From Eledone cirrhosa (taxonomy: Eukaryota): 64,000 nt of DNA. The notes beneath the pieces are model-generated. The model had not been told where the DNA came from. It worked only from the letters and a program-made list of their open reading frames with translations, and ran no database searches. The stretch covers positions 14,818,001-14,882,000 of the forward strand of contig OZ024755.1 in NCBI GenBank assembly GCA_964016885.1. The letters are read 5' to 3'. Below are positions 63,205-63,520 of the stretch, piece after piece. The stretch's first letter is position 1. Each line of letters opens with the position of its first letter. A program made the translations under genes and the position numbers.

Positions 63205-63520
63205 TGCACGTATCGGTTTACCGAACATTTATTATAATGCTCGGTTTGTTTGTTTGTAAACAAACAAACAGCCTGAATTACACCGTACAGTGTTTAGGCA
63301 ACCACGTCACCTTTTTGTTCAACACTGACACATACAATATAGGTATACGATACTGACGATAGCTAATAAGCTTAAAACTAGTACATCGTTCCTGTGTCAG
63401 TGTTGAATAAAAAGGTGACGTCGTTGCTTAAATACTGTACGGCGTAATTCGGGCTGTTTGTTTGTTTACAAACAAACAAACCGAGCATTATAATAAATGT
63501 TCTGTAAACCGATACGTGCA
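63205..63520 (+). mobile_element. Foldback element: 128-bp inverted arms enclosing a 60-bp spacer that is a minimal hammerhead motif
   Basis: Arms are 63205-63332 and 63393-63520 (TGCACGTATCGGTTTAC...). The spacer at 63348-63388 reads CGATA-CTGACGA-T-AGCT-AATA-AGCT-T-AAAA-C-TA-GTA|CATCG. AATAAA is in the right arm, and (TA)n flanks both sides. Confidence 0.8.

What the first reader, a model, noticed from the sequence alone, without database searches (positions are those of the whole stretch)
63205..63520. MITE look-alike whose loop is a hammerhead ribozyme
Seen: a symmetric 316-bp element with 128-bp inverted arms, each containing an internal (GTTT)n/(AAAC)n palindrome. The 60-bp spacer folds as a minimal hammerhead, and two single changes (AAAA to GAAA; CGATA to CGATG) restore a canonical core and 5-bp stem I. 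A TIR-based annotator would call it a DNA MITE. Inference: it is either a Penelope inverted-end product or a distinct rod-like, ribozyme-containing mobile unit. Cleavage at the apex would turn the transcript into a ~128-bp duplex.
Basis: partly seen in the sequence, partly recalled or inferred. Interest (0 to 1): 0.72.

Follow-up and report, generated by a model that had tools for sequence, protein, structure and literature searches.

The report
Fold-back retrozyme copy with Penelope footprint
This hairpin is one decayed, mirror-image insertion of a very abundant 440-base non-coding repeat that carries a hammerhead ribozyme motif, and the way its sister copies end suggests it was likely pasted in by a borrowed Penelope-type retrotransposon enzyme, so it is neither a DNA transposon nor a new self-spreading hairpin.

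Summary
The 316-bp hairpin is not a unit, though. Its junction occurs once in 3.0 Gb. It is part of a ~440-nt non-coding, tandem/permuted repeat with a type I hammerhead (non-LTR retrozyme): at least 5,724 copies, 4,899 with an intact core. Of 88 insertions chosen only for the core, 44 have an inverted 5' arm of variable length (29-653 nt). 79 end at one of two sites about 60 nt apart, mostly joined to (TA)n. In 29 of 30 scorable two-armed insertions the arms use opposite sites (p 2e-7). An autonomous Penelope-like element in this genome does the same (6 of 6). Verdict: a retrozyme likely mobilised by a Penelope-like enzyme; the MITE look is a by-product. This copy's ribozyme is likely dead (G12 changed). 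Cleavage, RNA circles and the partner enzyme are not shown. The scan's earlier notes reached the same reading for other repeats in this genome.

The parts
63156..63332 (-). Inverted 5'-truncated copy of the retrozyme unit (unit positions ~10 to ~180, counted from the cleavage site).
63333..63340 (.). 8-nt filler at the inversion junction; the junction is unique in the genome
   Evidence: (1 match with up to 2 mismatches)
63341..63556 (+). Direct 5'-truncated copy of the unit, from unit position 401 through the hammerhead to ~170; eroded after 63531
   Evidence: 63341-63520 is 95-97% identical to many copies
63347..63389 (+). Type I hammerhead motif: stem I, CUGACGA, stem II with U-U base pair, G12>A at 63374, G>A at 63352 breaking the closing stem I pair, palindromic 2-bp stem III, predicted cut after 63383
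   Evidence: (stem I pair probabilities 0.93-0.99 for four pairs, 0.39 for the fifth, 0 for the sixth)
63393..63520 (+).
63244..63269 (.). (GTTT)n/(AAAC)n palindrome, a local hairpin of the unit, mirrored copy
63456..63481 (.). (GTTT)n/(AAAC)n palindrome, a local hairpin of the unit
61500..63155 (.). Left TA-rich microsatellite (extends further left); likely the target
63557..63591 (.). Right (TA)n tract; likely the target

Best explanation
The hairpin is one two-armed, decayed insertion of a ~440-nt non-coding hammerhead repeat (a non-LTR retrozyme), likely written into a (TA)n microsatellite by the reverse transcriptase-endonuclease of a Penelope-like element acting in trans. Shown: family, copy number, tandem/permuted unit, variable 5' ends, inverted arm in half of the insertions, two fixed 3' end sites, opposite-site rule, TA flanks. 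Inferred: the enzyme cuts both strands of (TA)n and primes cDNA from both ends of the break on a multimeric or circular retrozyme RNA, one end at the inner start site and the other at the outer site ~60 nt away. The two incomplete cDNAs are then joined head-to-head, mostly with 0-7 nt of overlap. Here the inverted cDNA happened to stop just after the ribozyme and the direct cDNA just before it, which leaves the ribozyme as the loop of a MITE-like hairpin. Later point changes likely inactivated it.
For: Most scored hits match only the hammerhead plus right arm. Unit: 20 hammerhead-to-hammerhead units of 425-475 nt, longest frame 63 aa; 7 tandem units in L021. 5,724 framework matches, 4,899 with intact core. 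Of 88 insertions: 44 with an inverted arm; 3' ends 39 inner site, 40 outer site, 9 other. Two-armed with both ends scorable: 15 inner/outer, 14 outer/inner, 1 outer/outer, 0 inner/inner (Fisher p 2e-7). (TA)n follows 61 of 88 3' ends and 27 of 44 inverted outer ends, against 231 of 2,486 background points. 55 of 88 run 5' past the tail into more unit sequence, which implies a multimeric or circular template. Junction unique; 0 of 88 have the focal geometry. An RT+GIY-YIG element with a 938-aa frame has two end sites 68 nt apart, and 6 of 6 two-armed copies use opposite sites. Architecture as described for Penelope-like elements (PMC8557442, PMC3846280); two start sites and both strands extended in vitro (PMC11167929).
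Against: No autonomous element sharing the unit's sequence was found in 50 GIY-YIG loci, so the partner is unidentified. The tail here is 57-67 nt, against 30-40 nt in the papers. 14 of 44 two-armed insertions had an end at neither site and were left out of the 2x2 test. The focal copy's own outer ends are too eroded to assign. The 88 insertions come from one chromosome stretch and were picked for an exact core. The same-template test was only partly supportive: own arm above the median of other copies in 15 of 19, best-scoring in 5 of 19. PMC3846280 prefers self-priming on an antisense template for inverted junctions.
Confidence: 0.85

Rival explanations
1. A distinct rod-like ribozyme-hairpin element that spreads as a 316-bp unit.
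For: 7 hairpin-shaped loci (this one included) among the 40 candidates scored, several with an intact core in the loop.
Against: Each of those has a different junction. The focal junction is single-copy. 0 of 88 core-selected insertions have this geometry. Arm lengths are 29-653 nt.
Confidence: 0.02
2. A DNA MITE (for example TA-targeting Tc1/mariner type) that captured a hammerhead.
For: Long inverted arms and TA on both sides.
Against: The 'TIR' is internal sequence of a tandem unit and continues past the stated ends. Half of the copies have one arm only. Outer ends are asymmetric by a ~60-nt tail.
Confidence: 0.02
3. The unit is simply the pseudo-LTR of a rare or lost autonomous Penelope-like element, and these are its truncated ends.
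For: Identical insertion architecture. Retrozymes are reported to derive from pLTRs (bioRxiv 10.64898/2026.07.22.740005). The outer end site resembles one end site of family A (score 30; 2 of 2,000 shuffles as high, but a hand-picked pair).
Against: Long copies run into more unit sequence, not into an ORF (55 of 88). Only 1 of 88 loci has a PLE-protein tblastn hit, and it lies downstream of the unit. No shared upstream flank recurs in more than a pair.
Confidence: 0.07
4. The mirror arm arose by fold-back (self-priming or template switch onto the new cDNA), or in DNA after insertion, not by priming from both target strands.
For: Arms tend to resemble their own partner (15 of 19 above the median). 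Self-priming is proposed in PMC3846280.
Against: A simple fold-back copy should not choose the other of two fixed end sites 29 times in 30. Post-insertion inversion would not end at fixed sites joined to (TA)n.
Confidence: 0.15

Closest known systems
Metazoan non-LTR retrozymes (Cervera and de la Pena 2020, PMC7229834: passages and part 3 of 6 read; Li et al. 2026, bioRxiv 10.64898/2026.07.22.740005: parts 1-3 of 5 read)
   Same: Non-coding few-hundred-nt unit, type I hammerhead, monomers and tandem arrays, thousands of copies, co-occurring with Penelope-like elements. The U-U pair at the base of helix II with a 2-bp helix III resembles axolotl HHR_Amex2, which cleaves weakly as a monomer and well as a dimer.
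   Different: The unit (425-475 nt) is slightly above the 170-400 nt of the 2020 paper and within the 51-972 bp of the 2026 preprint. In what I read, neither describes inverted arms, two fixed end sites or TA targeting for retrozymes ('inverted' occurs 0 times in PMC7229834). Cleavage and circles are untested here.
Insertion units of endonuclease-bearing Penelope-like elements (Craig et al. 2021, PMC8557442: passages read; Arkhipova et al. 2013, PMC3846280: passages read; Frangieh et al. 2024, PMC11167929: parts 1-2 of 4 read)
   Same: 5' truncation, partial tandems, adjacent inverted 5'-truncated copy, tail at one end only, two RT start sites, microsatellite targets.
   Different: No ORF. The tail is 57-67 nt rather than 30-40. 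The 'often at one end' tail is here a near-strict opposite-site rule (29 of 30).
MITEs (non-autonomous TIR DNA transposons; definition from PMC8969392 passages and recall)
   Same: Short, non-coding, inverted arms, TA flanks.
   Different: No fixed termini, no shared structure among copies, and one-armed and tandem copies are common.

Membership tests
Non-LTR retrozyme | Type I hammerhead core in each unit | tested here: met
   4,899 of 5,724 framework matches have CUGANGA, GAAA and UH; the focal copy itself has G12>A
Non-LTR retrozyme | Short unit in tandem repeats as well as monomers | tested here: met
   20 units of 425-475 nt; 7 tandem units in L021
Non-LTR retrozyme | No protein coding | tested here: met
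   longest stop-free frame 63 aa in the doubled unit
Non-LTR retrozyme | Highly self-paired monomer | tested here: inconclusive
   circular MFE -146 kcal/mol with stem I closing the monomer; no shuffle control was run
Non-LTR retrozyme | Self-cleavage | not testable with these tools
   needs in vitro transcription
Non-LTR retrozyme | Expressed as circular and linear monomer RNA | not testable with these tools
   no raw RNA reads were available for this stretch
Penelope-like insertion architecture | Variable 5' truncation with an adjacent inverted 5'-truncated copy | tested here: met
   44 of 88 inverted, 29-653 nt
Penelope-like insertion architecture | Two 3' end sites; tail at one end only | tested here: met
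   79 of 88 end at two sites; 29 of 30 opposite; tail longer than the published 30-40 nt
Penelope-like insertion architecture | Microsatellite target bias | tested here: met
   61 of 88 followed by (TA)n against 9% background
Autonomous Penelope-like element | RT plus GIY-YIG ORF attached to the repeat | tested here: not met
   1 of 88 loci with a tblastn hit, downstream and not adjoining; in 50 GIY-YIG loci the unit appears in 3, about 0.9-2.6 kb from the ORF and not shared by family members
MITE | Fixed TIR termini and structure shared by copies | tested here: not met
MITE | Target-site duplication | tested here: inconclusive
   both flanks are TA repeats
MITE | TIRs shared with an autonomous DDE transposon | not tested
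   no transposase search was run, as the arms proved to be internal retrozyme sequence

The most novel reading that the evidence does not exclude
A dimeric Penelope-like enzyme copies one circular ribozyme RNA from both ends of a cut in (TA)n, and the two halves of the enzyme are obliged to start at different fixed sites about 60 nt apart. The 29-of-30 opposite-end rule in thousands of non-coding insertions would then be a direct genomic read-out of the unresolved Penelope integration geometry and proof of trans-mobilisation of retrozyme circles.
Probability: 0.35. Interest if true: 0.62.

Novelty: new member of a known kind. Interest (0 to 1): 0.36.

Why it matters
The hairpin itself is ordinary debris. 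The family is useful. Retrozymes have been proposed to borrow Penelope enzymes on the grounds of shared ribozymes, co-occurrence and pLTR similarity. Here thousands of retrozyme insertions carry the Penelope insertion footprint, and an autonomous element in the same genome follows the same opposite-end rule. That names two RNA start sites, a target and candidate enzymes for an in vitro test. It also warns that TIR-based annotators can file such RNA-derived insertions as DNA MITEs.

Tried and rejected
Rfam scans: no hammerhead match, only chance hits below the gathering scores; the minimal motif is below the models' reach. Pile-up of 5' ends at the cleavage site: 187 matches with a non-A before the site, of which at least 54 lie in one array, against 106 for a control position; 28 of 30 fetched were substitutions or indels and 2 were true truncations. 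No evidence that cleaved linear monomers are the usual template. A spreading ribozyme-dead subfamily: 118 copies with G12 changed, split among A, C and T and dispersed; rejected as ordinary decay. One search's '70 of 83 intact' count was dropped because my filter for core-selected copies did not work; replace it. Partner enzyme: none of 50 GIY-YIG loci shares the unit; folding the tails of the unit and of three autonomous families showed no common hairpin. Pile-up of direct 5' ends at the ribozyme's front edge (a lead from earlier notes): not seen, though the sample is anchored on the core. Expression: no RNA holder listed; four contig sets were laid and tell nothing on starts, ends or strand. 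The Pfam accession tried is not in the library. ORF listing of the window: mostly microsatellite frames, nothing over the element. Look-up of earlier findings by sequence: nothing.

Full report
Observation. The window has a 316-bp inverted repeat at 63205-63520 between TA-rich microsatellites. The arms are 128 bp with 7 mismatches, each with a (GTTT)n/(AAAC)n palindrome. It folds at -217.8 kcal/mol, z -30, 0 of 100 shuffles as stable. The spacer has a type I hammerhead layout with A in place of G12 (63374) and an A-C mismatch closing stem I (63352). Four stem I pairs form with probability 0.93-0.99. Rfam does not detect it. No second copy lies in the window.

The family. A DNA search of the own genome (3.0 Gb) gave 3,083 candidates, 40 scored. 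Seven loci (this one included) are hairpin-shaped; the other 33 scored places match only the hammerhead plus right arm at 95-97%. An exact 37-nt intact ribozyme pattern occurs 3,224 times, control 0. A framework pattern that leaves the ribozyme free matches 5,724 times, and 4,899 of these (86%) keep CUGANGA, GAAA and UH. In the 100 listed matches the recurrent differences lie at a stem I position (A-U to G-U), N7 and loop II (read by eye). G12 changes occur in 118 copies, split among A, C and T, so this is decay, not a subfamily. Twenty hammerhead-to-hammerhead units measure 425-475 nt, 90-98% identical to a 443-nt consensus, with no frame above 63 aa; stem I closes the folded monomer. L021 holds seven tandem units. 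The stated ends of the 'TIRs' are internal: family sequence continues to about 63156 and, eroded, to about 63556.

How copies are built. I fetched the first 100 listed exact-core matches, all on the first 80 Mb of one contig. They gave 89 loci and 88 insertions after removing one duplicate, mapped to the unit. 5' ends are scattered. 3' ends fall at an inner site (about 212-234; 39), an outer site (280-287; 40) or elsewhere (9). 44 have an adjoining inverted arm of 29-653 nt with inner ends scattered from 2 to 396. In 30 of these 44 both outer ends lie at one of the two sites: 15 inner/outer, 14 outer/inner, 1 outer/outer, 0 inner/inner (Fisher p 2e-7); the other 14 were left out of this test. 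(TA)n follows 61 of 88 3' ends and 27 of 44 inverted outer ends, but only 11 of 44 plain 5' ends and 231 of 2,486 background points. Arm junctions overlap by 0-7 nt in 28 of 44. 55 of 88 run 5' past the tail into more unit sequence, and 50 are at least one unit long, so the template is likely multimeric or circular. The focal junction is unique with up to 2 mismatches, and 0 of 88 share the focal geometry; 8 come loosely near it.

The likely enzyme. GIY-YIG gave 10,596 candidates, 150 scored. Several loci have long RT + C-terminal GIY-YIG frames (938 and 636 aa). The 938-aa frame has a CX4CxxC linker, which PMC8557442 (passages) gives for the Neptune and Nematis clades; I built no tree. That family ends at two sites 68 nt apart, joined to (TA)n. 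Of 11 loci examined, 6 are two-armed and all 6 use opposite sites. The retrozyme unit is not its pLTR: no shared sequence in 50 loci apart from three nearby separate insertions, and only 1 of 88 retrozyme loci has a PLE-protein hit, downstream. A resemblance between the unit's outer end and one end site of this family (2 of 2,000 shuffles) was hand-picked and is out of register; it is a lead only. The partner is unidentified.

Mechanism (inferred). Frangieh et al. (PMC11167929, parts 1-2 of 4) report a Penelope-like protein that cuts and extends both strands of AT-rich DNA, is predicted to be a dimer, starts at two internal RNA sites that define the tail, and does not need ribozyme cleavage. 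That fits my data if each target strand primes at a different site and the two cDNAs are joined head-to-head. In line with this, 5' ends do not pile up at the cleavage site. Whether both arms come from one molecule is open: the own arm is above the median of other copies in 15 of 19 and best-scoring in 5 of 19. PMC3846280 (passages) proposes self-priming instead. The focal copy lacks unit positions ~180-400, and G12 is changed, so it is likely inert (the role of G12 is recalled).

Comparison with what is known. The unit meets the sequence features of metazoan non-LTR retrozymes (PMC7229834, passages and part 3 of 6; PMC4209133, part 1 of 4). Its U-U helix II base and short palindromic helix III resemble axolotl HHR_Amex2, which cleaves better as a dimer. 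Cleavage and circles are untested here, and only 1 of 9 predicted retrozyme dimers cleaved in the 2026 preprint (parts 1-3 of 5), so activity should not be assumed. The inverted copy and one-sided tail are published for autonomous Penelope-like elements. My searches found no paper describing this footprint for retrozymes or a strict opposite-site rule. The library lacks most subscription papers, and I did not read supplements, which may bear on this. The host was not identified; octopus terms were a guess, and one octopus repeat annotation (PMC13282606, passages) does not mention ribozymes.

Earlier scan notes (unchecked AI notes, consulted after my own analysis) reach the same reading for other hammerhead repeats in this genome and in others. 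They are not independent support.

Verdict. A real feature, and a new member of a known kind. The MITE and rod-element readings fail. Interest lies in the family's footprint, which makes the retrozyme-Penelope link testable, not in this hairpin.

Noticed in passing
window 13564 (+), 37732 (-), 56014 (-), 35582 (-): Four other hammerhead-like motifs from unrelated families. The one at 35582 matches the downstream repeat of an RT-GIY-YIG family (L180). The 56014 family also occurs as a fold-back with the ribozyme in the loop in the flank of L002.
   Followed up: partly
G000:C3:12272037-12324199: An array of at least 54 units of this family that share a G at the cleavage position, which would block cleavage (NUH rule recalled); likely amplified in DNA.
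   Followed up: no
run X4 laid on L102:1400-1900: In organism B the family appears as a single 478-nt contig that goes back on itself by 442 nt at depth 8. It could be a circular RNA, a collapsed tandem or trace DNA; the run type is unknown.
   Followed up: no
unit positions 290-293, 325-332, 367-372 (for example L102:1400-1900; absent from the window copy): A T4 run just after the outer end site, an octamer-like ATGCAAAT and a TATA-like motif upstream of the ribozyme.
   Followed up: no
G000:C1:38805159-38806231 and similar: A second subfamily with G-U in stem I and changed loop II; its tandem spacings are often about 470-540 nt rather than 440.
   Followed up: no
L177:4006-6822 (-), L179:1475-4765 (+), L180:3719-5629 (-): Long open frames of Penelope-like elements (938, 1096, 636 aa); RT in all three, GIY-YIG scored in two. 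Candidates for an in vitro assay.
   Followed up: partly
window 9040-9938 and 57280-58053 (+): Two near-identical open-frame fragments that look like the C-terminal end of a LINE (assignment by eye, no family search).
   Followed up: no
L029, L048, L062, L080, L104, L116: Internal deletions of 40-57 nt that recur between unit positions ~30 and ~140, near the (GTTT)/(AAAC) hairpin; possibly RT skipping structure.
   Followed up: no
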